A stretch of DNA of 64,000 nt from an uncultured Verrucomicrobiales bacterium (GTDB lineage Bacteria; Verrucomicrobiota; Verrucomicrobiia; Limisphaerales; UBA1100): contig CAXGXE010000001.1 in the NCBI GenBank assembly GCA_964013675.1, forward strand, positions 5,411-69,410, in the 5' to 3' direction. How positions within the stretch are numbered: the stretch's first letter is position 1; every line of letters begins with the position of its first letter. Positions 36,201 to 48,800 of the stretch are shown piece by piece. The notes beneath the pieces were generated by a model. It did no database searches, was not told the DNA's origin, and saw only the letters and a program-made list of their open reading frames with translations. Made by a program: the position numbers and the translations under genes.

Positions 36201-37841
36201 ATGGCACGGGATAATTCCTTGATGGATGCGATTGTGGCGTTGTGTAAACGCCGCGGGTTTGTGTTTCAATCCTCCGAAATTTACGGGGGCTTCAGTGGTT
36301 TGTGGGATTACGGCCCGCTGGGGGTGGAATTGAAGCGTAACATCAAGGAGACGTGGTGGCGCGATATGATCACCACACACGATGAGCTGGATCAGCCCGA
36401 GGGGGCACCGCGCCGGTTCCAGATGGTGGGCATCGAGTCGAGTGTCATCATGCACCCGCGCGTGTGGAAGACTTCTGGCCATTACGATTTGTTTCATGAT
36501 GAGATGGTGGATTGCCGGGAGACCAATAAGCGTTACCGGTACGATCATGTGAAAGGCCGCTGGGTGACGCATGAGGGTCGCCGGCTTTTTGTGACCACCG
36601 TGGGGGCTGATGATTTGCAGGCGGCTCTGCAGGAACGCGCGTTACGTTTCTTTGGCCTGAAAAACAAGTATGCCGATAAGCTGGAATGGGACGGTGAGAT
36701 TGTCGATCTGCCGACGGTAAAGGATCACACCGAGGTGTTGGGCCCGGACGCCAAGGAACTCGGCTCGCTCACCGAACCGCGGGAGTTCAATCTGATGTTT
36801 GAAACGCACGTGGGCGCGATGCGCAATGACGACAACAAGGCCTTTCTGCGGCCGGAGACGGCGCAGGGGATGTTTGTGAATTTTAAGAACGTGGTGGATA
36901 GCAACCGCGTGAAGGTGCCCTTTGGCATCGCGCAGCAAGGCAAGAGTTTCCGCAACGAGATTACGCCGCGCAACTTCACCTTCCGCAGCCGCGAATTTGA
37001 GCAGATGGAGATGGAGTTTTTCTGTCACCCGGAAGAATCCTTCAAGTGGTACACCTACTGGCGCGATCGCCGGTTCAAGTGGTACACGGATTTGGGGATC
37101 GATGCCTCCAAGCTGATTCTGCGTGATCACGAGCAGGACGAGCTCTCGCATTACTCGGTGGGCACGGCTGATGTGGAGTACGCGTTTCCGTTCTGCGAGG
37201 AAGGCGAATTCGGCGAGCTGGAAGGCATCGCGCACCGCGGCGATTTTGATCTGCGCTCGCATATGGAAGGCAAGCTCGTGCGCGAAGGCGAGGAGCTGGT
37301 GGTGGAAAAGGATGCTGAGGGGAACCCGAAATACCCCGGCAGTGGGAAGGATCTTACTTTCTTCGATGACGAAACGAAGGACCGCTTTGTGCCTCACGTG
37401 ATCGAGCCGGCCGCCGGAGCGGATCGCACGGTACTGGCGTTTATTTGCAATGCCTACCATGAGGAGACCATCACCAACGAAAAGGGCAAGGAAGAGACGC
37501 GCGTGGTCATGAAGTTTCACCCGCGCATTGCGCCGTACAAGGTGGGCGTCTTCCCGCTACTCAAGAACAAGCCCGAGCTGGTCGCTAAAGCACGCGAGGT
37601 TTGTAACCTGCTGCGCCCGCACATGGCGGTGTTTTATGATGAAGGCGGCGCCATTGGTCGACGCTATCGCCGCCAAGACGAGGCCGGCACGCCTTACGGT
37701 GTGACCATCGATTTCGATACGCTCGGCGAAAACGGCGATGAGTCCAAGGACACCATCACCTTGCGTGATCGCGATACCATGGAGCAAACCCGTATGCCCA
37801 TCAGCGAGCTCCTGCCGTTTCTGCTGGAGAAAATTCGGTAG
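36201..37841 (+). CDS. glyQS: glycine--tRNA ligase (class II, homodimeric alpha2 type)
   Basis: N-terminal RRGFVFQSSEIYGG...WDYGPLG, motif 2 FRNEITPRNFTFRSREFEQMEMEFF, and motif 3 region EPAAGADR. 546 aa. Confidence 0.95.
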   Translation: MARDNSLMDAIVALCKRRGFVFQSSEIYGGFSGLWDYGPLGVELKRNIKETWWRDMITTHDELDQPEGAPRRFQMVGIESSVIMHPRVWKTSGHYDLFHDEMVDCRETNKRYRYDHVKGRWVTHEGRRLFVTTVGADDLQAALQERALRFFGLKNKYADKLEWDGEIVDLPTVKDHTEVLGPDAKELGSLTEPREFNLMFETHVGAMRNDDNKAFLRPETAQGMFVNFKNVVDSNRVKVPFGIAQQGKSFRNEITPRNFTFRSREFEQMEMEFFCHPEESFKWYTYWRDRRFKWYTDLGIDASKLILRDHEQDELSHYSVGTADVEYAFPFCEEGEFGELEGIAHRGDFDLRSHMEGKLVREGEELVVEKDAEGNPKYPGSGKDLTFFDDETKDRFVPHVIEPAAGADRTVLAFICNAYHEETITNEKGKEETRVVMKFHPRIAPYKVGVFPLLKNKPELVAKAREVCNLLRPHMAVFYDEGGAIGRRYRRQDEAGTPYGVTIDFDTLGENGDESKDTITLRDRDTMEQTRMPISELLPFLLEKIR

Positions 37842-37859
37842 CCCCGCATACTTGCCCGC

Positions 37860-38618
37860 GTGACCCCCACCGAAGCTGCCCAGCTGCTTGAAGAGTTCCG
37901 CGCCGGCAAAATCAGCCAGGCGCAGGCTCTTGCTGCCCTCGGTAAAGAACCCGTCACCGACCTCGGCTTCGCGCAGGTGGATCAACACCGCGCCCTACGG
38001 CAGGGTTTCCCTGAGGTCATCTTCGGTGCCGGAAAAACGCCCGTGCAGGTCGTTAAGATTGCCGGTGAAATTCTCAAGCAAAGCGATCGCGTGCTCATCA
38101 CCCGCACCACACCGGCGCACGCCAAGGCCATCGCCAAGAAATTCAAGAAAGCCGTTCACCACGAAACCGCCCGTTGTGTGGTGATCGAAAAGAAAAAATC
38201 CAAACCCCAACGCGCTGGTGCCATCGCCATCCTCTCCGCCGGGACCAGCGATCTACCAGTGGCCGAGGAAGCCGCGGTCACTGCCGAGACGATGGGTAAC
38301 CCTGTTCGGCGCTTGTTCGATGTCGGTGTCGCCGGACTGCACCGGCTGCTGGCGCGCGTGGAAGATTTTCGGGAGGCCAATGTCATCATCGTCGTGGCCG
38401 GCATGGAAGGCGCCTTGCCTAGCGTGGTGGCTGGCCTCGTCGACAAACCCGTCATCGCTGTGCCCACCAGTATCGGTTACGGCGCCAGCTTCGAGGGCGT
38501 GGCCGCGCTACTTGGCATGCTCAATAGCTGCGGTAGCGGCGTCACCGTCGTCAATATCGATAACGGCTTCGGCGCCGCCTACGCCGCCAGCCAGATTAAT
38601 GCACTGACTGATTCATGA
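37860..38618 (+). CDS. larB: nickel-pincer cofactor biosynthesis protein LarB (PurE-like carboxylase/hydrolase)
   Basis: C-terminal PurE-like domain ([24 protein letters not shown]...[15 protein letters not shown]...VIAVPTS.GYG) preceded by the LarB-specific N-terminal segment. GTG start. Confidence 0.85.
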
Positions 38619-39589
38619 ATTGCCTTCGGTTGATGTTCCCGGCACTTCTTGGTGCCCTTGTCATGGGTGGAGCCGGTTGTGTGACGCCCATTCCGTCCGC
38701 CGCGGCGGTTTATGAACGCGTCCAACCGGCGGCTTTGGAGATCTTGGTGAATGGCCGAATGGCCGGCTCAGGCAGTATCGTGGATGCCGGCGGCAGCGTG
38801 CTGATTGCTGCGCACATGTTACCGGCAGGTAATGAAGCGCATTTGGAAGCGCACTCCTCAACACTCGGTCGGCAGCCGCTTCGCTTGATTGCCCTTGATC
38901 TTGCGCATGACCTCGCCTTGCTACAGTTGCCCTTGCAAGCTGAGGAATATCCGCATCTAACCATAGCCCAACGCTCCCCAGGTCCTGGCGAGCCGGTTTA
39001 TCTCTATGGCGCTCCGGTGTTTCGACATGATGTTATGATCTCCGGCAAGATCGCGCGTGCCCAGCCAACCTTTGAATTTTACGATGGTGCGTATCGGGAG
39101 GTTCTCCATATCTCCGGTATTTCACCCATTGGCACTTCGGGCGGTCCGTGGGTTAACGCGCGCGGGGAATTAATTGGAGTACAAAGTGCGGCAATGACCA
39201 TCAAGGGAGCACATCAGGGGATTGCCTATGCAAGCCCGCTGGCATCTCTCAAGGGTCTGCTGCAAAAAAAGAAAACAGTTCAAAGCGCCACCATGCAAAC
39301 GGGTGTGGAAGAATTGTGGAGTCAGGAACCGAGCTTTATCAATAAACTACATAAGGATTTTCGAGGGCTGGTGGTCCGTCAACTCCGCAAAGATGGAGTT
39401 GCCGCCAAGGCTGGCCTGAAAGAGTGGGATATTATTGTGGCCATTGATGGCCGATCGGTGAATCGCACTGATGACTTGATGCGTATGATTCGCAGCCGGG
39501 AGCCCGGTCAAACAGTTCGTTTGAAGGCCACAGACCGGGAAGGGAAGAATTCACGCGATCTCACTATCAAGTTGGTTCCGATCAACTGA
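38615..39589 (+). CDS. trypsin-like (S1C) serine protease with C-terminal PDZ domain, lipoprotein
   Basis: Lipobox GGAGCV, a His/Asp/Ser context (AAHML; DLALLQL; GTSGGPWVN), and a PDZ-like C-terminus (GLVVRQL...[14 protein letters not shown]). 4-nt overlap with larB. Confidence 0.8.
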
Positions 39590-39604
39590 ACAGCCCCCTC
39601 TGGT

Positions 39605-41152
39605 TTATTTTTCCAGCTTGGGAATCGCCGGCAGGCCAAAGCCTCCCTTTTGTGGATTCTCGCGCTGAAGTTTCTTTAATTCTTTTTTGTTGAGCGTTTT
39701 GTCGCTCGTGTCGCGTTTTTGATCTGTATTGAAGGTAAGTGAATCAATCATCGCACCATTCAAGGTGGCTTTGCCAAAAATGGGGCTCTCCACCTCAAGT
39801 TTGTTTTCCGTCCAGCTAATGAGTTTGAAATCCAGTACGTCAGCCCCTTTTAACGTTGCCTTAACCAGTCCATTGTTGACCTTGACCTCCTTGCTAACGG
39901 TTGATTTAGCAAACTGAATCAGGCGTGAATGAGCCCAGGGAATATCTACCTCGCCGAAGCTGCTCTTGATTTTAACTTTTCCATCACCAATGCGGGTGAT
40001 GGTCCCAGTAACTGTATCTTCGTTGATCAGGCGGATAGTATCCTGCTTGGGGCTAATGGTTGTATCGGTTGCGGCAATTGGCTCGCTTCCATCCCATTGG
40101 CTGATTCGGATATTACTAACCTTCAAAGGATAAGGGGAGCGTGAGGTAAAGAGCAATCCATCTCCCTTGCCTGCAAAGGCTTCCTTATCTTTCCAATTGG
40201 CTATTTGGATTCCATTGATTGACAGGATAAATGATCGTGATTTTTTATTGGTGCGTAGTGAGTAGCGTACACGCGACCCAATCCCCGTCAGGTTTACCCG
40301 AGTGTTGGACCCCAACCGATCGGATATGAAATCATCATTCCGTTTACTTTGCCGGTGAAAGTTGGCACCGGCTTGGCTCAGCTTCAGGGCGTATGAGCTG
40401 CCGTTGGATGGGGATTTCAGGTTGTCGGTGAACAAATTTACATTCAGGGAAAAGTAACCGGAGTTGCGCCCCGGAGTGGACCAGTCCACGTCAAATTCAA
40501 TCAGGGCCTTATCAGGGAACCCCACTTTACGCCCGGCCGTTGCGCCGGCGCCAGTGCTAGTGATGGCACCTGCCTTGAATTCGAATTTACCAGAGCCATT
40601 TTTTTGAGCTGGGATAGGCAAGGCAAAGCCGCCACCTCCTATAATATTTTTGGAAGAACCAAAGACCCAATCCTTTTCTGAGGAGGGGCCATTGTAGACA
40701 ACTTTGCCTATTCCTGCTGTCGCCGGAATGATCGCCTTGAGCTGGCTCCGCATGAATTCTATTTGGCCGGCCGCGGTATGGCTCATAACTACCCGCTCAG
40801 TATCGGCCAGGTCCAGCTGACCTGAAAAGGAGTTTCCATTAGTCAGCAAAACCTGGCTTTGAGTGGGCTGCGCGGGGGCGGATCCGGTGAAGGTGACACG
40901 GTCAATTGCTTCCGGGTTAATCTGCAATGCCGGTTTAATATTGGCAGCTTCCCACACGAGGCCAAGTTTGGGATCGAATTTGACAAATTTACCGGTGATA
41001 ACATCACCATTGAGCATATACACCGCTTCAATATTGGCTGACGATTTACCCAGTGCCGGCACGGTCATCATGGGAGGGCGGGCAGCTTGAATAGGGAAGC
41101 TTGGAAGCAAAGCCCACAAGAGGATGAAGTACAGGCGGAACATCGTCATCAC
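39605..41152 (-). CDS. hypothetical secreted protein (515 aa) with repeated beta-modules and a jelly-roll-like core
   Basis: Clear signal peptide (MFRLYFILLWALLPSFPIQAA) and an uninterrupted ORF. Four approximately 40-aa modules of the form LxNGDxxTGxxxxxxxxxxxxxxxxGxxxxxxxxIxxxxF. Lys-rich tail. I recognise no family. Confidence 0.6.
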   Translation of the reverse strand: MMTMFRLYFILLWALLPSFPIQAARPPMMTVPALGKSSANIEAVYMLNGDVITGKFVKFDPKLGLVWEAANIKPALQINPEAIDRVTFTGSAPAQPTQSQVLLTNGNSFSGQLDLADTERVVMSHTAAGQIEFMRSQLKAIIPATAGIGKVVYNGPSSEKDWVFGSSKNIIGGGGFALPIPAQKNGSGKFEFKAGAITSTGAGATAGRKVGFPDKALIEFDVDWSTPGRNSGYFSLNVNLFTDNLKSPSNGSSYALKLSQAGANFHRQSKRNDDFISDRLGSNTRVNLTGIGSRVRYSLRTNKKSRSFILSINGIQIANWKDKEAFAGKGDGLLFTSRSPYPLKVSNIRISQWDGSEPIAATDTTISPKQDTIRLINEDTVTGTITRIGDGKVKIKSSFGEVDIPWAHSRLIQFAKSTVSKEVKVNNGLVKATLKGADVLDFKLISWTENKLEVESPIFGKATLNGAMIDSLTFNTDQKRDTSDKTLNKKELKKLQRENPQKGGFGLPAIPKLEK

Positions 41153-41249
41153 TCTGGAGGTAAACTCGCCTACCCGTCAAGCTGACGTGTAAAAGGGCAG
41201 TCGTTTTTTAGGTCTGGTTCCGAATGAATTACCACCTTATTGTCATAAC

Positions 41250-43118
41250 GTGAAGCGGGAGCAATTATTAAAAAAGCGGCTCACTACTGAGCAGCAATGG
41301 ATTCTCTTCAATCATTCCGCTTTATCCCGGCGTTTGCCGGAGGATCATTACCAGGAAATGGAAGGGCTCATGCATGTTTTTTGGCATGAGGTCAAATTCG
41401 AACCTCATGGGGTCGATGAGATAACTGAAGAGATGCGGGTACTAGTGGCCGCTGAAGCCTGTATTCTTATAATCCTGCTAGGCTATGAAAAATATCGCTA
41501 TCTCAAGAAGGTTGAAATCCATGGTAAATATATTGATTTAGAGGATGGTAGAAAGGCGGCAGGCACAGGTGGTCGCAGGGTTGTGCAATTGGTTTGGTCT
41601 TCCACTCTGGAAGGGTGCCAACATGGTACAGATAACGAAAATGTTTTATTACATGAATTTGCTCATGTTATTGATCAAGCACAATATGGCATAGCTGAAA
41701 GTATTCCAGTGGGTATCAACTCGGTTGATTACGAGGAATGGAAGGCGGTGCTGGGCCAAGAATATACGAAATTACAGGAAGCCTTTCAATCTGGAGAGGG
41801 ACACACTCTAAGAGAATACTCGATATCCTGTGATTCGAAGGCGGAATTTTTCACATGTGCCACCGAAGCATTTTTTGAGCGATCCACTCAGTTACATTCA
41901 TCTAACAATGAAATATACCGGCTTTTATCCAATTTTTATGGATTAGATCCCGTCGGCTGGAACCATGAATTTTGTCCCGGATGTTTTGGTGCTGTAGGGA
42001 AAATTGTTGAAGGGTGGTCATTATGTTCAAATTGTGGTTGGCCTGGGAGAGATAAAGATCAACCGCCTCAATTTCACAAGGTGGATACGCCGTCACATGG
42101 AGAACAATTACACTCTGAAGAGCCAGCAGCTGAATTGCCACCCATCCTTGAGCAGTTGACTATTGGGCAGCGAAAAATCCTCACTTACCATTCTGCCCTC
42201 TACAATCGTCTCCCTGGGGATTTAAAAATCAGACTTGAGGGCCTCATGCATGTTTTTCTGCGGGAAGTTACTTTTGAAGTGGATGGGTTCGATGAAGTGA
42301 CTGAAGAGATGCGTATTTGTGTGGCCGCTGAAGCTTGTGTTCTTATTTTAAGCCTCGGCTACGACAGTTATTCTCAATTAAGGCGGGTCACAATTTCGAG
42401 AGATGCCTTGAAGTGGGACGGAAAAGAATGGGGTGGTTTGGCGGGGCGCCACGAAGTGTCATTATACTGGGACCAAGCTCTTACTGGAATGCTTTGGGGT
42501 AGTGATAATCGCAATGTCATTTTACATGAGTTTGCCCATGTCTTGGATCAGGCAGATGATGCAACTGCGCAGAGCATCCCTGTGGCAGTAGATTCACTGG
42601 TCGATCGTGTGAAATGGGAACAAGTAATTGATCAGGAATACCCTAAGATCAAAGCGGCGTATGCGGAGGGAAGAGCGCATACGATCGATGACTATTCTCT
42701 CACCGATAATGCAGAGTTTTTTTCCTGTGCCACGGAATCTTTTTTTGAAAGATCTAAGGAGTTGCATCAGCATAACCCCGAGATATATGAGTTATTGCAG
42801 GACTATTATAGATTAGACCCGGTACAATGGAAACCAGTGGATGAGGAAGCGGATCGGGCGGCAAAACGTCAAAGAGCACTTGATCATCAGTTAACCATAG
42901 CCAAAACGTTTGGATCTCTTTTGGTGCTAATTATTCCGGCTATTGGCATCTGTTTTATGGGTTTGTTGGGTCATGCACCTTGGGATGGGATTCTTTTTTG
43001 TTTCATGCCGATCTTTTTATTCCTGTTCTATTGCTGGTGGTTGTTGGCAAAGCCAACCATCGCCCGCCTTAAGGCGGATCAGGCCGAATCTTTTGACGCT
43101 AAAACGAATCTTCGATAG
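41250..43118 (+). CDS. tandem-duplicated M90 (MtfA-like) zinc metallopeptidase with central zinc ribbon and C-terminal TM anchor
   Basis: Two homologous approximately 230-aa halves, each with HEFAHV(I/L)DQ (nt 41652 and 42525) and ...AEFF(T/S)CATE(A/S)FFERS. A CPGC...CSNC ribbon (nt 41973-42035) lies between them. Two hydrophobic helices near the C-terminus. GTG start. Confidence 0.75.
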   Translation: MKREQLLKKRLTTEQQWILFNHSALSRRLPEDHYQEMEGLMHVFWHEVKFEPHGVDEITEEMRVLVAAEACILIILLGYEKYRYLKKVEIHGKYIDLEDGRKAAGTGGRRVVQLVWSSTLEGCQHGTDNENVLLHEFAHVIDQAQYGIAESIPVGINSVDYEEWKAVLGQEYTKLQEAFQSGEGHTLREYSISCDSKAEFFTCATEAFFERSTQLHSSNNEIYRLLSNFYGLDPVGWNHEFCPGCFGAVGKIVEGWSLCSNCGWPGRDKDQPPQFHKVDTPSHGEQLHSEEPAAELPPILEQLTIGQRKILTYHSALYNRLPGDLKIRLEGLMHVFLREVTFEVDGFDEVTEEMRICVAAEACVLILSLGYDSYSQLRRVTISRDALKWDGKEWGGLAGRHEVSLYWDQALTGMLWGSDNRNVILHEFAHVLDQADDATAQSIPVAVDSLVDRVKWEQVIDQEYPKIKAAYAEGRAHTIDDYSLTDNAEFFSCATESFFERSKELHQHNPEIYELLQDYYRLDPVQWKPVDEEADRAAKRQRALDHQLTIAKTFGSLLVLIIPAIGICFMGLLGHAPWDGILFCFMPIFLFLFYCWWLLAKPTIARLKADQAESFDAKTNLR

Positions 43119-43133
43119 AGTTTCAACTCAATC

Positions 43134-44420
43134 GTGAAAACCCTTTACCTCGATATTTTTAGCGGCATCAGTGGCGACATGTTTCTGGGAGCCATGATCG
43201 ATCTGGGCGTGGATTTTGATGCGCTGGATATAGAGCTGAAGAAGCTCAAACTGGAGGGCTACACACTCAGTGCCAATCGCCGGCAAAAATGCGCCATTGA
43301 TGGGGTGAAGTTTGATGTGCATTTGGCGGCCGGCGGCGAAGGCGATCATGACCACAGTCATTCGCATGATCATTCTCACGAACACAGTCACTCGCACGAA
43401 CATTCCCATGAGCACAGTCATGGAGGCGATGATGGTCACGGACACAGCCGAAATTTTGCGCAGATCTCGGAGATGATCCACGCCAGTACCCTGAGTGATT
43501 GGGTGAAGGAGAAGTCGGTAGCCGTGTTTCAACGCGTGGCCAATGCCGAGGGCAAGATTCATGGGATGCCGCCTTTTGAGGTGCACTTTCATGAGGTGGG
43601 TGCGGTGGATTCCATTGTCGATATCGTGGGCGGCTGTATTGCGCTGGAACTTTTGGGTAAACCACGCGTGCGCAGCGGGCCGGTCATTGAGGGCACCGGG
43701 TTTATCATGTGCGCCCATGGCCGCTTTCCCATTCCCGCACCGGCGACACTCAATATTCTCGCTGAACGCGGTGTAGCCATTACCCAGTGTGAGGAACCCA
43801 ATGAACTCATTACCCCGACAGGTGCGGCCTTGATTGCTGAATTTGCTGAGGACTTTGGGCCCTTGCAAAATCTCACGCCTGAGAAGGTCGCCTTTGGGTT
43901 GGGCACACGCGATTGTGAAACGCGCCCCAACGTTCTGCGTGCGGTGTTGGGCGAGGAAACCGCATCAACATCCGGCAATGATTGGGAGACGGATACCATT
44001 GCGGTTTTGGAAACCAACCTTGATGATATTAGTTCAGAAGTCTTGGGCGACTTTGTGGAACGCGCACTGAAAGCCGGCGCACTGGACGTGGTGCACACGC
44101 CCATTCAGATGAAGAAGAACCGGCCGGGGGTACAGCTGAGTGTCCTGTGTGCTGAAGGTGATGCGGATCAGTTCTGCGAAATGATCCTGCGCGAGACCAG
44201 CGCCTTTGGTGTGCGCCGTACCTTAACTGAACGCCGCAAGCTCCAGCGCGAGACCAAGACGGTGGCTACCCCACATGGGGAAGTGACCGTGAAGTTGGGC
44301 AAACTCAATGGCGAAATCGTGCAGGTGGCGCCCGAGTATGAAAGCTGCCGCGCTATTGCGGCAAAGGCTGATGTGCCGCTAAAGGCCGTGTATGATGCAG
44401 CCGTGGCGGCGGCGCGTTAA
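43134..44420 (+). CDS. larC: nickel-pincer cofactor biosynthesis protein LarC (nickel insertion)
   Basis: N-terminal MKTLYLDIFSGISGDMFLGAMIDLG. A His-rich tract DHDHSHSHDHSHEHSHSHEHSHEHSHGGDDGHGHS (nt 43344-43448). LarC-like C-terminal domain. It starts 15 nt after the M90 gene. Confidence 0.9.
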   Translation: MKTLYLDIFSGISGDMFLGAMIDLGVDFDALDIELKKLKLEGYTLSANRRQKCAIDGVKFDVHLAAGGEGDHDHSHSHDHSHEHSHSHEHSHEHSHGGDDGHGHSRNFAQISEMIHASTLSDWVKEKSVAVFQRVANAEGKIHGMPPFEVHFHEVGAVDSIVDIVGGCIALELLGKPRVRSGPVIEGTGFIMCAHGRFPIPAPATLNILAERGVAITQCEEPNELITPTGAALIAEFAEDFGPLQNLTPEKVAFGLGTRDCETRPNVLRAVLGEETASTSGNDWETDTIAVLETNLDDISSEVLGDFVERALKAGALDVVHTPIQMKKNRPGVQLSVLCAEGDADQFCEMILRETSAFGVRRTLTERRKLQRETKTVATPHGEVTVKLGKLNGEIVQVAPEYESCRAIAAKADVPLKAVYDAAVAAAR

Positions 44421-44427
44421 TTGGGTT

Positions 44428-44922
44428 TTATTCCCTCGTGGATGTGCGGCCGGTGTGTTGTGCATTCTGCCCAAACATTGGCCAAGGGCTTTTGGCGGGG
44501 CCTTTGGAATCGGTTTTGATGGCATAGAGCTTGTTGTCATCTGACCCGACGTAAACCGTGCCATCAGAGCCGATGGCGGGGGGGGACCACACATCACCTC
44601 CCGTTTCAAATTCCCATAGCTTGACCCCACTCTTGCCATTGATGGCATAGAGCTTGTTGTCAATTGACCCGACGTAAACCGTGCCATCAGAGCCGATGGC
44701 GGGGGAGGACCCCACCATACCTACCGTTTCAAATTCCCATAGCTTGCCCCCTACGGTTGTCTTGGCTTTGGTTGGCTCATTCGGACGTGCATTTGACAAT
44801 GCTTCCACCTCAGCTTCCCACGCTTTGTTTCGAGCATCTAATTCTTCTGATAGTTTTTTCGCATCTGATCTTCCACACCCCATCACCAAGAATAGAGCCA
44901 AACCAATCATCACAGCTTTCAT
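44428..44922 (-). CDS. two-blade PQQ-like repeat lipoprotein (short paralogue of 34326..35549)
   Basis: Lipobox LVMGCGR, a coiled linker, and only two LWEFET...GSDGTVYVGS.DNKLYAI blades. It has the same C-terminal AKSPWPMFGQNAQHTGR tail as the long paralogue. Confidence 0.7.
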   Translation of the reverse strand: MKAVMIGLALFLVMGCGRSDAKKLSEELDARNKAWEAEVEALSNARPNEPTKAKTTVGGKLWEFETVGMVGSSPAIGSDGTVYVGSIDNKLYAINGKSGVKLWEFETGGDVWSPPAIGSDGTVYVGSDDNKLYAIKTDSKGPAKSPWPMFGQNAQHTGRTSTRE

Positions 44923-45074
44923 GCGGCTAATAAAAGGTAGTCGCCCATAGCCCGTCTACTACAAGCTCAATGATTTTTTGTAGCTGCTCTTAATCACGTA
45001 AAGAGTGATAGGCTAGACAAATTTACACCTTACGAATGACGGCCTGAGTCATTGGTGTCATAGTCACCGCTCTG

Positions 45075-45815
45075 ATGCTGGATGCCGAACAACTCGATGC
45101 CTTTGGGCGTGATGGACAATTGACTGTGCCTGATCTCTTTAGTGCAGAAGAAATCGACCGCGCACTGGAAGACTTGGGGCAGTGGGATAAAGAATTTCGG
45201 CCTACGCTTACTGATGAAGAGCGCGAATGGTATTTGGAAGATCCCAGTGATCCATCCAGTCCGTTTCGAAAATTGGATGATCCGGTATTTCATCGGGCAG
45301 CGTTTAGGGCTTTGGCCATGGCCCCGGCGTTGCTGGAGGCAGTGGAGCAATTGATCGGCGAGGGGGTGACCTTGTTTTTTAGTCAGGTGTTTTGCAAACC
45401 GCCTGAGGTCGGCGGCCCCAAGCCGGTGCATCAGGATAATTTCTATTTCGCCCCCAGTGATACCGATGCACTGCTCACCACATGGATCGCACTCGATGAG
45501 GCGACGGAAGAAAATGGCTGCCTCCACTATGGCCTCGGCAGCCACCACGAACCGGTGCTCGAACATACCGCACCTGAAGATGCGCCTTTCAACCTGCAAG
45601 TACCGGCGGATGTCGCCAAAAAATATCCGATGACACCAGCGCCCGTACCTCGCGGTGGAGTGTCCATCCATCACGGCAACACACTGCACCAGTCATCCGC
45701 CAACCGCAGTGCTCATCCGCGCCGAGCAGTGACCTTCCACTTCCTGCGTAATGATGCTGAATTAGTCGAGCCGGCCCTCAAATATGATCCTTCCCACTCG
45801 GTGAAGGTCAGCTAA
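45075..45815 (+). CDS. phytanoyl-CoA dioxygenase (PhyH) family protein
   Basis: Fe(II)/2OG facial-triad context (PVHQDNFYF ... HHGNTLHQS ... R..AVTFHF). The 246-aa length fits. Confidence 0.8.
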   Translation: MLDAEQLDAFGRDGQLTVPDLFSAEEIDRALEDLGQWDKEFRPTLTDEEREWYLEDPSDPSSPFRKLDDPVFHRAAFRALAMAPALLEAVEQLIGEGVTLFFSQVFCKPPEVGGPKPVHQDNFYFAPSDTDALLTTWIALDEATEENGCLHYGLGSHHEPVLEHTAPEDAPFNLQVPADVAKKYPMTPAPVPRGGVSIHHGNTLHQSSANRSAHPRRAVTFHFLRNDAELVEPALKYDPSHSVKVS

Positions 45816-45863
45816 AAATTCTGCTGGCTTGCCAAGCGGCGTGTGAGCCTCAAACTAACTGCG

Positions 45864-48800
45864 ATGCGATGTTGGATCTCCATCGCGGTGTTTTCTGTCG
45901 CCTGCAATGTGTTTGCCGCCCCGGATTTTAGCCGGGACGTTTTGCCTATTCTTTCGGATACCTGTTTTACCTGCCACGGTCCCGATGCTAACGCGCGTAA
46001 AGCTAAGCTGCGTTTGGATGTGGAGGCGGATGCCAAGCAGGAAGTTATTATTCCGGGTAAAAGTGCAGAGAGCGAAATCATCGCGCGCATTTTTTCAGAG
46101 GATGCGGATGAACTCATGCCGCCGCCGGAATCGAATCTCAAACTAACCGCAGCCCAAAAGGCTACGCTCAAGGAATGGATCGATGCGGGTGCCAAGTGGG
46201 GTAAGCATTGGGCGTATGAAACTCCCAAACCCGTGGCCCTACCAAAAGTGAAGCTGGCCGACTGGCCGCGTAGTGGAATCGATAACTTTATTCTGGCGCG
46301 ATTGGAGCGGGAAGGTTTGAAGCCTTCCAAGGCAGCGGATCGGATTACATGGTTGCGCCGAGTAACTTTGGATCTCACTGGATTACCCCCCACTTTGGTC
46401 GAAGTGGATGCTTTCCAGAAAGACAAATCTCCCAAGGCATTTGAAACAGTGGTCGACCGCCTTTTGGCTTCACCGCGTTATGGCGAGCGTATGGCTTGGG
46501 ATTGGCTCGAGGCCGCAAGGTATGCCGATAGCAATGGGTATCAGGGTGATCGCGAACGAACCATGTGGCCGTGGCGTGATTGGGTGGTTCGCGCCTTCAA
46601 TGCCAATCAGCCGTACAACGATTTTACCGTGGAACAGATCGCCGGCGACCTGCTGCCGAATGCAACGGAGGAGCAGGTGCTGGCGACGGGCTTCAATCGT
46701 AACCACATGATCAACGGCGAAGGTGGCCGTATCGCAGCAGAAAACCGTGTGGAGTATGTTTTTGATCAGACTGAAACGGTCGGCACGGTTTGGATGGGAC
46801 TGACCTTTAATTGCTGCCGCTGCCATGATCATAAGTTCGACCCGATCAGTCAGCGTGATTACTTCAGCATGTATTCTTTCTTTAATCAAACGCCGGTGAA
46901 TGGTGGTGGTGGAGATCCAGCAATGGCGCCCAATATTCAGGTGGGCACACCGGAGCAGAAAAAGGAGATTGCCGGTCTCGAGCAAAAGATCGCCGCGTAT
47001 ACGAAAGCCATCGCCGCCCGACGCGCGGTATTGGCACAAGGGCAGGCGAAGTGGGAAGCGGAGCAGTTGAAGCGCGGATCAGCCTCGGCGTGGACGTCAC
47101 TGAAACCCATCGCCGCCCGCGCGCAGCAGCAGACTTTGGAATTGCTGCCGGATCAATCCGTGCTGGCGAAAGGCAAGCTGCCCGATCGCGATGAGTATGC
47201 GGTGCAAATGGCCGCGGGCGTGAAACCGTTTCGTCATGTGCGGTTGGAGGCATTGCAGCATGCGAGTTTGCCTGCGGGCGGGTTGAGCCGCGTGAAAGGC
47301 GGCAACTTTGTGCTAACGGATTTCAAGATAATGATCGAGAGCACGGGTTCCGAACCAAAGGAATTGAAGCTAACGGGCGCTAAATCGACATTCAATCAGG
47401 GCGGCCTTGATGTGAAACAGGCGATTGATGACAACGCCGGTAGTGGATGGGGAGTATGGCCGGGGCAGCAAGGTGTTAAGCAGGCACACACGGCAATATT
47501 CACGCTTGCTGAACCTGCGGTGGAAAAAGCTGGCACCAAGTTGACGGTTCTCATGAAATTTAATCACTCGGCTAAGCAGCATGTAATGGGACGGTTTCGC
47601 GTGTCCGTTTCTAATGCAGGCGAGCCGGACTTTGGTTCAGGCGAATTACTGACAGCGCTGCAGGCTGAGCCCGCCAAACGTACGGTGGCTATGAAGGAGA
47701 TAGTCAGCAAAGCCTACAGTTTGAATGACCCTGAATTGCGCCGGTTGCAAACCGAGACAGATGCCGCGAAAAAACGCATCAACGATTTGCGCAAAGCGTT
47801 CCCCAAAGTGATGGTGATGCGTGATGGGACCAAGCGCGAAACGCGCGTGCTCATCCGCGGTGTGTACAACAAGCCTACGGACATCGTGGTGAGCAGTAAC
47901 ACGCCGGAGAGTTTGCCGCCGTTACCAGAAGATGCTCCGCGCAACCGGTTGGGATTGGCGGAGTGGCTGGTCAATCCCAAGCATCCGTTGACCGCTCGTG
48001 TGACGGTTAACCGGATCTGGCAGCAGTTCTTTGGTACGGGATTAGTGAAGACCACCGAGGATTTTGGTGTGCAAAGTGAACGGCCGAGTCATCCGGGTTT
48101 GCTTGACTGGCTGGCGCAGGAATTTGTTTCCGATAACTGGAACGTCAAGAGGCTGCATCGACGGATCTTGCTGAGTGCAACCTACCGCCAAAGCTCAGCG
48201 GTGACATCTGCGTTGCACGAGCGCGATCCGGAAAACCGGCTGCTGGCACGTATGACACGCTACCGGTTGCCTTCGTGGATGATTCGTGATCAGGCCCTGG
48301 CGATAAGCGGACTGTTGGTGGAAAGGATGGGAGGGCCTCCAGTGAAGCCTTATCAGCCGCCGGGCGTTTGGGCCGAAAGCACGTTTGGCAAAAAACGCTA
48401 CGCACAGGACAAAGGCGAAGCTTTGTATCGACGTAGTCTTTATACTTTCTGGCGGCGGATTGTGGGGCCCACGATGTTCTTTGATGAAGCCAAACGCCAG
48501 ACCTGTGAAGTGCGCCGCGCGCGGACGAACACGCCGCTGCATGCATTGATCACCCTCAACGATGTTACCTATGTAGAAGCCGCCCGCGCAATGGCCCAGC
48601 GGGTTCTTCACGAAGGCGGAGTCGATGACGTAGCCCGCGTGGCGTATGCCTTTCGCCTAGCGACTGCCCGCCCGCCATCCGCAGAGGAAGCGGTCGTGCT
48701 GCGTCAGCGCATCCAGCAATTGCGCGTCACCTACGCTGCCAAACCTGAGGCTGCGCAGGAGTTGTTAAAGGTCGGCGAACATGTCCGCGACGAAACTCTT

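What the first reader, a model, noticed from the sequence alone, without database searches (positions are those of the whole stretch)
41250..43118. Tandemly duplicated M90 (MtfA-like) peptidase with a zinc ribbon and membrane anchor, likely co-transcribed with larC
Residues about 10-237 and about 300-527 are clear duplicates, for example LMHVFWHEVKFEPHGVDEITEEMRVLVAAEACILI versus LMHVFLREVTFEVDGFDEVTEEMRICVAAEACVLI. Both retain HEFAHV(I/L)DQ and the downstream AEFF.CATE.FFERS glutamate region, so both halves look catalytically competent. A CPGC-x16-CSNC zinc ribbon links them, and two hydrophobic helices end the protein. E. coli MtfA is a single-domain cytoplasmic M90 peptidase. I do not know of a described double-M90, ribbon-linked, membrane-anchored architecture. 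larC starts only 15 nt downstream, which suggests an operon linking this protein to nickel-pincer cofactor synthesis or metal handling.
Basis: partly seen in the sequence, partly recalled or inferred. Interest (0 to 1): 0.6.

Follow-up and report, generated by a model that had tools for sequence, protein, structure and literature searches.

The report
Two-headed membrane-anchored M90 zinc peptidase
This gene from a marine Verrucomicrobium encodes a membrane-tethered zinc peptidase with two intact MtfA-type catalytic domains; it is a rare variant of a known family, close relatives often lose the first domain by a clean in-frame deletion, and its position next to larC looks like local gene order rather than a shared function.

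Summary
ORF 41250-43118 (+) encodes 622 aa with two Peptidase_M90 domains (Pfam E=4e-89). The halves are 52% identical (E=1e-80). Both keep HEFAH, the zinc-ligand Glu and all 27 family-conserved positions. A conserved Cys4 knuckle follows domain 1; its spacing is x13, not x16. Two C-terminal hydrophobic helices end the protein. AlphaFold gives two confident MtfA folds (TM 0.86-0.87 to 3DL1/3KHI); the ribbon and linker are unresolved.

The two domains are each other's closest relatives (NJ bootstrap 98), so the duplication is lineage-specific.

In the same populations, single-domain alleles sit at the same syntenic site:
- 341 aa instead of 622 aa, from an 843-nt in-frame deletion (window 41268-42110) between 9-nt repeats.
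- 311 aa instead of 588 aa in the sister population, from a different junction.

Related marine Verrucomicrobiota carry unannotated proteins with 2-6 M90 repeats.

larC starts 15 nt downstream with no terminator-like site. That adjacency is kept only in this narrow clade. It is absent around four distant relatives and in 80 metagenome loci; of 80 genome loci only the clade's own SAG and two related Gemmatimonadota MAGs (M90-larE-larB-larC) carry lar genes.

Verdict: a new architectural variant of a known peptidase family; a link to the nickel-pincer pathway is not supported.

The parts
41250..43118 (+). CDS of the 622-aa double-M90 protein (GTG start, TAG stop)
   Evidence: ORF list. The exact protein is on 11 public contigs. 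Orthologues P0001 (94%) and P0002 (74%) have the same architecture. The N-terminal 40 aa align with the start of domain 2, which supports the GTG start over the internal ATGs used by some gene callers.
41274..41969 (+). M90 domain 1 (aa 9-240)
   Evidence: Pfam PF06167, first stretch. phmmer domain 9-240. AF2 pLDDT is mostly 85-97. dN/dS is 0.28 against P0002.
41652..41666 (+). HEFAH zinc-binding and catalytic motif of domain 1 (aa 135-139)
   Evidence: Motif scan. It aligns with HEXXH of MtfA.
41844..41846 (+). Glu199, predicted third zinc ligand of domain 1 (AEFF)
   Evidence: It is the equivalent of domain-2 Glu489. Glu489 aligns with the Glu of PAECF in MtfA, which is E211 in E. coli MtfA.
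41973..42035 (+). Cys4 zinc-ribbon-like knuckle CPGC-x13-CSNC (aa 242-262)
   Evidence: The four Cys are conserved in P0001, P0002, P0003 and P0109 (x12 in P0109), while the residues between them vary. Pfam zinc-ribbon hits are only sub-threshold. AF2 pLDDT is below 50.
42036..42149 (+). Low-complexity linker (aa 263-300)
   Evidence: AF2 pLDDT is below 50 over aa 240-298. The linker is shorter in P0002.
41268..42110 (+). 843-nt segment (281 codons: domain 1, ribbon and most of the linker) that is missing in the 341-aa alleles; it is bounded by imperfect 9-nt direct repeats, GAGCAATTA and GAACAATTA
   Evidence: The 341-aa alleles P0256/58/60/63 are in the same 90% cluster. Locus L176 is 93-97% identical in the flanks. 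SAG locus L013 has the same junction. Coordinates were checked.
42150..42839 (+). M90 domain 2 (aa 301-530)
   Evidence: Pfam best stretch 307-521. AF2 pLDDT is 90-98. dN/dS is 0.19 against P0002. It matches PDB MtfA over aa 418-528.
42525..42539 (+). HEFAH motif of domain 2 (aa 426-430)
   Evidence: Motif scan. These columns are invariant in the 81-sequence family alignment.
42714..42716 (+). Glu489, predicted third zinc ligand of domain 2
   Evidence: Alignment to 3DL1 and 9SRW MtfA. E211 is the ligand in E. coli MtfA.
42906..42974 (+). Hydrophobic helix 1 of the C-terminal anchor (aa 553-575)
   Evidence: Kyte-Doolittle 19-residue means up to 2.45. AF2 helix 532-572. K/R-rich sequence precedes it.
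42987..43049 (+). Hydrophobic helix 2 of the C-terminal anchor (aa 580-600)
   Evidence: Kyte-Doolittle means up to 2.33. AF2 helix 578-613. The inter-helix loop is 4-5 residues and a K/R-containing tail follows.
43119..43133 (+). 15-nt spacer between the M90 stop codon and the larC GTG start
   Evidence: Sequence. No terminator-like site lies here. The gap is 47 nt in L002/L003 and about 95 nt in L004.
43134..44420 (+). larC (neighbour; probably the same transcription unit, but not shown to be functionally linked)
   Evidence: PF01969 E=3.5e-138. NCBIfam LarC1 and LarC2 score above their cut-offs.

Best explanation
The gene encodes a membrane-tethered zinc metallopeptidase of the M90 (MtfA-like, gluzincin) family with two complete catalytic domains in one chain.

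Shown:
- There are two MtfA-fold domains, and each keeps the H-E-x-x-H helix and the downstream Glu. The predicted zinc ligands are H135/H139/E199 and H426/H430/E489. The predicted general bases are E136 and E427.
- Both domains are under purifying selection.
- They arose by a duplication specific to this small clade of marine Verrucomicrobia.

Inferred:
- The protein has no signal peptide. Lys and Arg flank the outer ends of the two C-terminal helices, the loop between them is only 4-5 residues, and a Cys4 metal knuckle is present. Together these point to an N-in/C-in hairpin that holds both peptidase heads on the cytoplasmic face of the inner membrane.
- A flexible tether of about 60 residues carries the Cys4 knuckle between the heads.
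- The likely activity is trimming or cleaving peptides or exposed protein termini near the membrane, as proposed for MtfA. The natural substrate of MtfA is itself unknown.

The first head plus ribbon is an accessory module. In two sister populations it is removed by independent in-frame deletions between short repeats left by the duplication. This leaves a one-headed protein with the same anchor at the same locus.

The gene is probably transcribed together with larC in this clade, but that reflects local gene order, not a dedicated role in nickel-pincer cofactor synthesis.
For: Family and fold:
- Pfam PF06167 at E=4e-89 in two stretches.
- Halves are 52% identical, E=1e-80.
- 27 of 27 family-conserved positions are kept in both halves.
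- AF2 mean pLDDT is 83, with both domains mostly above 90.
- Foldseek to Klebsiella MtfA 3DL1/3KHI gives E about 4e-8 and TM 0.86-0.87.
- Sequence alignment to MtfA places Glu489 on the zinc-ligand Glu. The ligand identities come from PMC13482132.

Selection:
- dN/dS is 0.28 for domain 1 and 0.19 for domain 2 against P0002, 0.19 for domain 1 against P0109, and 0.08 for domain 2 against P0111.

Origin of the duplication:
- NJ tree bootstraps are 100 for the d1 clade, 100 for the d2 clade and 98 for d1+d2 together.

Single-domain alleles:
- The 341-aa and 311-aa forms are in the same 90% clusters as the double forms and at the same syntenic site.
- The deletion junctions were mapped to 9-nt and roughly 8-11-nt repeats.

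Membrane anchor:
- Hydropathy, charge distribution and AF2 helices.

Link to lar genes:
- No lar genes lie near the M90 genes of four distant relatives.
- None lie in 80 metagenome loci.
- Only 3 of 80 genome loci have them, and one of those is the same clade.
Against: - No enzymatic, metal-binding, topology or transcript data exist.
- The relative placement of the two heads is not resolved (pTM 0.53), and the ribbon is not modelled (pLDDT below 50).
- The Cys4 element does not reach any Pfam zinc-ribbon threshold.
- Topology rests on hydropathy and the positive-inside rule only.
- The protein scores 69.8 bits against a 400-bit cut-off for the MtfA equivalog model, so E. coli MtfA biology cannot simply be transferred.
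- A second, independent M90-larE-larB-larC arrangement in Gemmatimonadota is more than I would expect by chance for direct same-strand adjacency. A functional link therefore cannot be fully dismissed.
Confidence: 0.7

Rival explanations
1. The peptidase is an accessory factor of nickel-pincer nucleotide cofactor biosynthesis and is co-expressed with LarC. It might process or turn over LarC or a LarA-type client, or handle metal at the membrane.
For: - The gene is on the same strand as larC, 15 nt upstream, with no terminator-like site between them.
- The adjacency is kept in every clade member examined, with either one or two domains.
- larB lies 2.6 kb upstream.
- An independent MBL-M90-larE-larB-larC arrangement on one strand occurs in two Gemmatimonadota MAGs.
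Against: - The clade is narrow (75-96% DNA identity), so conserved synteny there carries little weight.
- Four more distant Verrucomicrobia contexts, 77 of 80 genome loci and 80 of 80 metagenome loci have no lar gene within reach.
- The two Gemmatimonadota MAGs are close relatives (M90 83% identical), so they count as one event. The next-closest M90 gene (59% identical, L057) has no lar neighbour.
- Neither the word peptidase nor a gene-neighbourhood discussion appears in the recent LarC structural paper; the only 'protease' there is the TEV tag site.
Confidence: 0.1
2. The protein works mainly as a membrane-tethered titration or anti-repressor factor, as MtfA does with Mlc. It would sequester one or two copies of a regulator at the membrane, with peptidase activity secondary.
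For: - E. coli MtfA is best known as a binder of the Mlc repressor, and its substrate is unknown.
- Relatives with 3-6 repeats contain M90-like domains that have lost HExxH. This suggests that M90 domains can serve as binding modules.
Against: - Both domains here keep every catalytic and family-conserved residue under purifying selection.
- The MtfA equivalog model is far below its cut-off (69.8 against 400 bits).
- No ROK or Mlc-type gene was seen among the neighbours examined.
Confidence: 0.15
3. The double-domain ORF is an artefact (assembly chimera or collapsed paralogues), or one half is a decaying pseudo-domain.
For: Single-domain versions exist at the same locus.
Against: - The identical 622-aa protein is on 11 contigs, and double forms occur in ENA, JGI, NCBI and Tara assemblies.
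- The halves are only about 52% identical, so assemblers would not merge or duplicate them.
- dN/dS is well below 1 in both halves.
- 27 of 27 conserved positions are kept in both halves.
Confidence: 0.02

Closest known systems
MtfA / YeeI (Mlc titration factor A), MEROPS family M90, Pfam PF06167; structures 3DL1, 3KHI (Klebsiella) and 9SRW (E. coli, with Mlc)
   Same: Each half has the same fold (TM 0.86-0.87) and the same gluzincin signature, HEXXH plus a downstream Glu. The Tyr and the FxxATE(A/S)FFE helix are conserved, and the location is cytoplasmic.
   Different: - This protein has two domains in one chain.
- It has a Cys4 knuckle after domain 1.
- It has a C-terminal two-helix membrane anchor.
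- It is only 17-22% identical over the structurally aligned region and far below the NCBIfam MtfA equivalog cut-off.
- There is no evidence for an Mlc-type partner.
Single-domain membrane-anchored M90 proteins of marine Verrucomicrobia (for example P0023 and P0025, annotated 'zinc-dependent peptidase [Verrucomicrobia bacterium]', and P0135)
   Same: They have the same M90 subfamily (41-51% identical to either half) and are membrane tethered. P0135 also has a C-terminal two-helix anchor.
   Different: They have one domain only. Most are anchored by N-terminal helices. They have no ribbon after the domain, and they are not next to lar genes.
Unannotated multi-M90 repeat proteins of marine Verrucomicrobiota (P0013/P0018 with 3 repeats, P0007 with 3, P0110 with 4, and the L014 protein of 1586 aa with about 6)
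   Same: They have several M90 units in one polypeptide and come from the same phylum and habitat.
   Different: - They arose by independent duplications; their domains group apart from d1 and d2 in the tree.
- Several of their repeats have lost HExxH.
- They have N-terminal anchors or none.
- They have no inter-domain ribbon.
Other peptidases with tandem catalytic domains (somatic angiotensin-converting enzyme with two M2 domains; carboxypeptidase D with three M14 domains). This comparison is from general knowledge and was not tested here.
   Same: An internal duplication gives two zinc-peptidase heads on one membrane-anchored chain.
   Different: These are unrelated families. They are eukaryotic ectoenzymes, and their anchors and topology differ.

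Membership tests
Peptidase family M90 (Pfam PF06167, MtfA-like) | Significant match to the family profile above the curated threshold, for each half | tested here: met
   PF06167 scores 298.8 bits against a 26.2-bit cut-off, in two stretches. phmmer finds domains at 9-240 and 301-530.
Peptidase family M90 (Pfam PF06167, MtfA-like) | Gluzincin zinc site: HEXXH plus a downstream Glu (EXXA in E. coli MtfA) | tested here: met
   HEFAH lies at 135 and 426. Glu199 and Glu489 in AEFF(T/S) align with the MtfA ligand Glu. The fourth residue of the motif is Thr or Ser instead of Ala.
Peptidase family M90 (Pfam PF06167, MtfA-like) | MtfA three-dimensional fold | tested here: met
   The AF2 model has both domains at high pLDDT. 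Foldseek to 3DL1/3KHI gives TM 0.86-0.87 normalised to the target.
Peptidase family M90 (Pfam PF06167, MtfA-like) | Zinc-dependent peptidase activity | not testable with these tools
   This needs purified protein. Only residue conservation and dN/dS below 0.3 are available.
MtfA proper (DgsA/Mlc anti-repressor, NCBIfam NF011939 equivalog) | Score above the equivalog cut-off, which implies an Mlc-binding orthologue | tested here: not met
   69.8 bits against a 400-bit cut-off.
Cys4 zinc ribbon | Two CxxC pairs about 12-16 residues apart, conserved among orthologues | tested here: met
   CPGC-x13-CSNC is found in the window protein, P0001, P0002 and P0003, and CPGC-x12-CRSC in P0109. The residues between the pairs vary.
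Cys4 zinc ribbon | Match to a curated zinc-ribbon profile, or a confident ribbon fold | tested here: inconclusive
   Only sub-threshold hits were found: Zn_Ribbon_1 at E=0.053, and DZR_2 at E=3e-4 for P0109. AF2 pLDDT is below 50.
Integral-membrane anchored protein (C-terminal helical hairpin) | Two hydrophobic segments of about 20 residues with a charge distribution consistent with one topology | tested here: met
   Kyte-Doolittle means reach 2.45 and 2.33. AF2 models helices there. K/R lie before helix 1 and after helix 2, and the loop is 4-5 residues. No dedicated transmembrane predictor was available.
Operon with larC / lar gene cluster | Same strand, short gap and no terminator between the genes | tested here: met
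   The gap is 15 nt and no terminator-like site was found. This is a consensus scan only.
Operon with larC / lar gene cluster | Adjacency conserved across phylogenetically distant genomes | tested here: not met
   The adjacency is conserved only within the clade. It is absent and in 80 of 80 metagenome loci. One other lineage, Gemmatimonadota, has M90 upstream of larEBC.
Operon with larC / lar gene cluster | A transcript spanning both genes | not testable with these tools
   This needs RNA-seq or RT-PCR across 43118-43134.

The most novel reading that the evidence does not exclude
M90 peptidases are an unrecognised accessory of the nickel-pincer nucleotide cofactor pathway. On this reading, the gene sits directly upstream of larC in this Verrucomicrobial clade, and directly upstream of larE-larB-larC in Gemmatimonadota, because the peptidase matures, recycles or quality-controls a Lar protein or a nickel-pincer-dependent client. 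The presence or absence of the first head would then tune that role.
Probability: 0.1. Interest if true: 0.65.

Novelty: new variant of a known kind. Interest (0 to 1): 0.35.

Why it matters
M90 is a widespread peptidase family whose natural substrates are still unknown, even for E. coli MtfA. This locus offers a natural experiment. Within the same populations and at the same genomic site there are one-headed alleles (d2-only) and two-headed alleles, and a more divergent relative (about 80% DNA identity) carries a d1-only form. All forms are membrane-tethered and all retain intact catalytic residues. This gives ready-made constructs and comparisons for asking what an M90 head does and why heads are multiplied, up to about six per chain, in marine Verrucomicrobiota. 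It also gives a precisely mapped example of domain-number polymorphism produced by deletion between short repeats that an internal duplication left behind. For annotation, the result shows that the larC adjacency should not be used to transfer a nickel-pincer function to this protein.

Tried and rejected
- A genome-contig scan with the single protein found no relative. The repeat scan with the family alignment worked.
- A Foldseek search of afdb50, meant to look for double-M90 entries in UniProt, was not possible because the library is not installed.
- The MtfA structure paper by Xu et al. 2012 (PMC3370624) is not held. Zinc-ligand identities were therefore taken from PMC13482132.
- Literature searches for Peptidase_M90, family M90, COG3228 and K09933 returned nothing on multi-domain or membrane-anchored M90 proteins.
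- PADLOC gave no hit for the protein or for the 515-aa neighbour, so a defence-system reading was dropped. The only PHROGs hit was a family of unknown function.
- Rfam found no RNA element in 37000-46000 at E up to 0.1, so no riboswitch or leader explains the arrangement.
- The promoter and terminator consensus scans were at or below the shuffle expectation and are uninformative beyond the absence of a terminator-like site in the 15-nt gap.
- I considered that the single-domain forms are ancestral and that the double form arose by insertion. I rejected this because the junction repeats are part of the duplicated N-terminal segment, and because P0111, P0256 and P0267 fall inside, or match at 90% or more, the domain-2 clade. 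Asymmetric evolutionary rates remain a caveat for the most divergent lineage, L005.
Full report
**What is at the coordinates**

The window has an uninterrupted ORF at 41250-43118 (+). It has a GTG start and encodes 622 aa. The exact protein is present on 11 public contigs from NCBI and ENA sources. Near-identical 622-aa versions occur in ENA and Tara assemblies, so the gene is real.

Some gene callers start it at internal ATGs, giving 586-aa and 582-aa versions. The 40 residues upstream of those ATGs align with the beginning of the second domain, which supports the GTG start.

The neighbours are as follows:
- prolyl-tRNA-synthetase-like gene at 36201-37841 (+)
- larB at 37860-38618 (+)
- trypsin-like/PDZ protease at 38615-39589 (+)
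- a 515-aa protein with no family match at 39605-41152 (-)
- the M90 gene at 41250-43118 (+)
- larC at 43134-44420 (+)
- a small PQQ-repeat protein (-)
- PhyH, PSCyt/PSD1 and DUF1501 genes

Homologue names and a related single-cell genome place the organism among uncultured marine Verrucomicrobia.

**Checking the observation**

- Pfam PF06167 (Peptidase_M90) matches at E=4e-89 in two stretches.
- BLASTP of residues 9-238 against 301-528 gives 52% identity and E=1e-80.
- HEFAH lies at 135-139 and 426-430.
- An 81-sequence family alignment has 5 invariant and 22 nearly invariant columns. All 27 carry the same residue in both halves.
- The Cys4 element is CPGC-x13-CSNC, not x16. The four Cys are conserved in five orthologues while the residues between them vary.
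- Two hydrophobic segments, about 553-575 and 580-600, have Kyte-Doolittle means up to 2.45.

**Fold and active sites**

AlphaFold2 was run with the family alignment. It gives mean pLDDT 83, with both M90 domains mostly above 90. The ribbon and linker (240-298) are below 50, the C-terminal helices are around 75, and pTM is 0.53. The two domain folds are therefore trustworthy, but their mutual arrangement is not.

Foldseek finds Klebsiella MtfA (3DL1, 3KHI) at E about 4e-8 and TM 0.86-0.87. Pro-Pro endopeptidases and anthrax lethal factor follow.

Sequence search of the PDB aligns residues 418-528 with MtfA. It places Glu489 on the Glu of PAECF. In E. coli MtfA, H148, H152 and E211 bind zinc and define a gluzincin (PMC13482132). 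By alignment, the ligands here are H135/H139/E199 and H426/H430/E489.

The protein is far below the NCBIfam cut-off for MtfA proper (69.8 against 400 bits). It is therefore an M90 family member, not an MtfA orthologue.

**Origin of the duplication**

In a neighbour-joining tree of M90 domains, all first domains form one clade and all second domains form another. The two clades are sisters to the exclusion of every other sampled M90 domain. Bootstraps are 100, 100 and 98. The duplication is therefore specific to this small clade.

Both halves are under purifying selection. Against P0002, dN/dS is 0.28 for domain 1 and 0.19 for domain 2. Against the single-domain relatives it is 0.19 and 0.08.

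**Domain number is polymorphic**

This is the most informative new result.

- The 90%-identity cluster that holds the window protein also holds 341-aa proteins that read MKREQL|HSEEP....
- The sister cluster has 588-aa double forms, 74% identical to the window protein. It also holds 311-aa proteins that read MKRDELLKKRLT|TDQRK....
- These short alleles sit at exactly the same syntenic site. Their flanks are 93-97% identical to those of the double alleles.
- For the 341-aa allele, the junction is an in-frame loss of window 41268-42110 (843 nt, 281 codons). It lies between 9-nt repeats: GAGCAATTA at the gene start and GAGCAATTA or GAACAATTA at the end of the linker.
- A single-cell genome, AG-365-D08, carries the same junction.
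- For the 311-aa allele, the crossover lies in AAGCGGCT(T/C)ACT. This motif is repeated at the start of each domain.

Two independent deletions therefore remove the first head, the ribbon and the linker, using repeats inherited from the duplication.

A more divergent relative (about 80% DNA identity) keeps only the first head, the ribbon and one helix. This is P0109, flanked by the 515-aa gene and larC. Another relative (about 75% DNA identity) keeps only the second head and the hairpin (P0111). Either head can evidently stand alone on a membrane anchor.

**Wider family**

An exhaustive search of 1.84 billion representatives found 2599 relatives at E up to 1e-3. Among the best 150, almost all are single-domain.

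Marine Verrucomicrobiota nevertheless hold several multi-M90 forms, none of which carries an informative annotation:
- proteins with three repeats, of which only the last is catalytic (P0013, P0018)
- three repeats behind N-terminal helices (P0007)
- four repeats (P0110)
- about six repeats (1586 aa in MAG locus L014)
- two adjacent separate M90 genes (L093)

Their domains group apart from d1 and d2, so these were independent expansions.

Membrane anchoring is common in this subfamily. It is usually N-terminal, though P0135 has a C-terminal hairpin. A similar Cys4 ribbon is inserted inside the M90 domain of P0040 and P0052.

What is rare is the exact combination of two active heads, an inter-head ribbon and a C-terminal hairpin. 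I saw it only in the two sister clusters.

**The larC question**

- larC starts 15 nt after the stop codon, and no terminator-like site intervenes. Co-transcription is therefore plausible.
- The adjacency is kept in all clade members, with gaps of 15-95 nt. However, these share 75-96% DNA identity, so the conservation says little.
- M90 genes of four more distant relatives have unrelated neighbours.
- Of 80 genome loci, three have larC within 10 kb. One is the SAG from the same clade. The other two are closely related Gemmatimonadota MAGs with MBL-M90-larE-larB-larC on one strand.
- Of 80 metagenome loci (666 kb), none has a lar gene.
- The recent LarC structure paper mentions no peptidase; its only 'protease' is the TEV tag site.

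I read the adjacency as local gene order. The Gemmatimonadota case is a second, independent instance, and it keeps a functional link alive at about 10%.

**Mechanism**

Shown:
- two intact MtfA-type gluzincin domains
- a conserved Cys4 element
- two terminal hydrophobic helices
- purifying selection on both heads
- dispensability of the first head in nature

Inferred:
- There is no signal peptide.
- K/R-rich sequence lies before helix 1 and after helix 2, and the loop between them is 4-5 residues.
- A cysteine-ligated metal site is present.
- Together these indicate an N-in/C-in hairpin, with both heads on the cytoplasmic face of the membrane, joined by a flexible tether.
- The likely activity is peptide or protein-terminus cleavage near the membrane. 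The substrate is unknown, as it is for MtfA itself.

**Verdict**

This is a new architectural variant of a known family. It is of moderate interest, mainly because natural one-headed and two-headed alleles coexist.

Noticed in passing
window 37860-39589: larB (NF033503, 303.7 bits) overlaps by 4 nt with a trypsin-like/PDZ protease gene. Each of the two lar genes here is therefore paired with a protease gene. No larE or larA was found among the neighbouring ORFs scanned.
   Followed up: partly
window 41250-41370: Public gene calls for this same protein start at internal ATGs (Met37 and Met41, giving 586 and 582 aa). This cuts off about 40 residues that belong to the M90 domain. The GTG at 41250 is the better start.
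   Followed up: partly
window 41274-43118 compared with L002: Synonymous divergence from the P0002 gene is very uneven. dS is 0.24 in domain 1, 0.88 in domain 2, and saturated in the anchor. This suggests that the domain-1 segment was exchanged between populations more recently than the rest of the gene.
   Followed up: no
window 43132-44751 compared with L013 11023-12642: The larC region is 90% identical in DNA (97% in protein) to the SAG AG-365-D08, whereas the flanking genes are only about 73-77% identical. This could reflect a recombination tract or unusually strong constraint on larC.
   Followed up: no
P0264 (member of the window protein's 90% cluster): This is a 564-aa double-domain allele whose C-terminal anchor is replaced by an unrelated pair of hydrophobic helices. 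The membrane anchor is therefore also swapped between alleles.
   Followed up: no
L014 4745-9505 (MAG Verrucomicrobiota ETNP1_MAG_4): A 1586-aa protein has N-terminal hydrophobic helices and about six M90-like repeats. Some of the repeats lack HExxH. It is the largest M90 array seen here.
   Followed up: partly
P0040 and P0052 (380 and 386 aa): A CPKC-x13-CWKC ribbon is inserted inside the M90 domain, between the HExxH helix and the Glu helix. This is a second, differently placed Cys4 insertion in the same subfamily.
   Followed up: no
L040 2221-7429 and L089 3089-8654 (Gemmatimonadota MAGs): A metallo-beta-lactamase-fold gene, a 261-aa soluble M90 gene, larE, larB and larC all lie on one strand. 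This is the only M90-lar adjacency found outside the window's clade.
   Followed up: partly
window 39605-41152 (-): A 515-aa protein with a hydrophobic N-terminus has no Pfam, PADLOC or PHROGs match. It is transcribed divergently from the M90 gene across a 97-nt spacer and is syntenic in all relatives.
   Followed up: no
window 44428-44922 (-) compared with L013 12407-13380: The small PQQ/beta-propeller-repeat protein downstream of larC corresponds, in the SAG, to a longer array of repeats of about 123 nt. The copy number of this repeat protein varies between relatives.
   Followed up: no
window 43134-44420 (LarC aa about 68-105): LarC carries a long His/Asp/Ser/Glu-rich insert (GEGDHDHSHSHDHSHEHSHSHEHSHEHSHGGDDGHGHS). 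It weakly matches ZrgA and nickel/cobalt efflux models. It is presumably an extended nickel-binding region.
   Followed up: no
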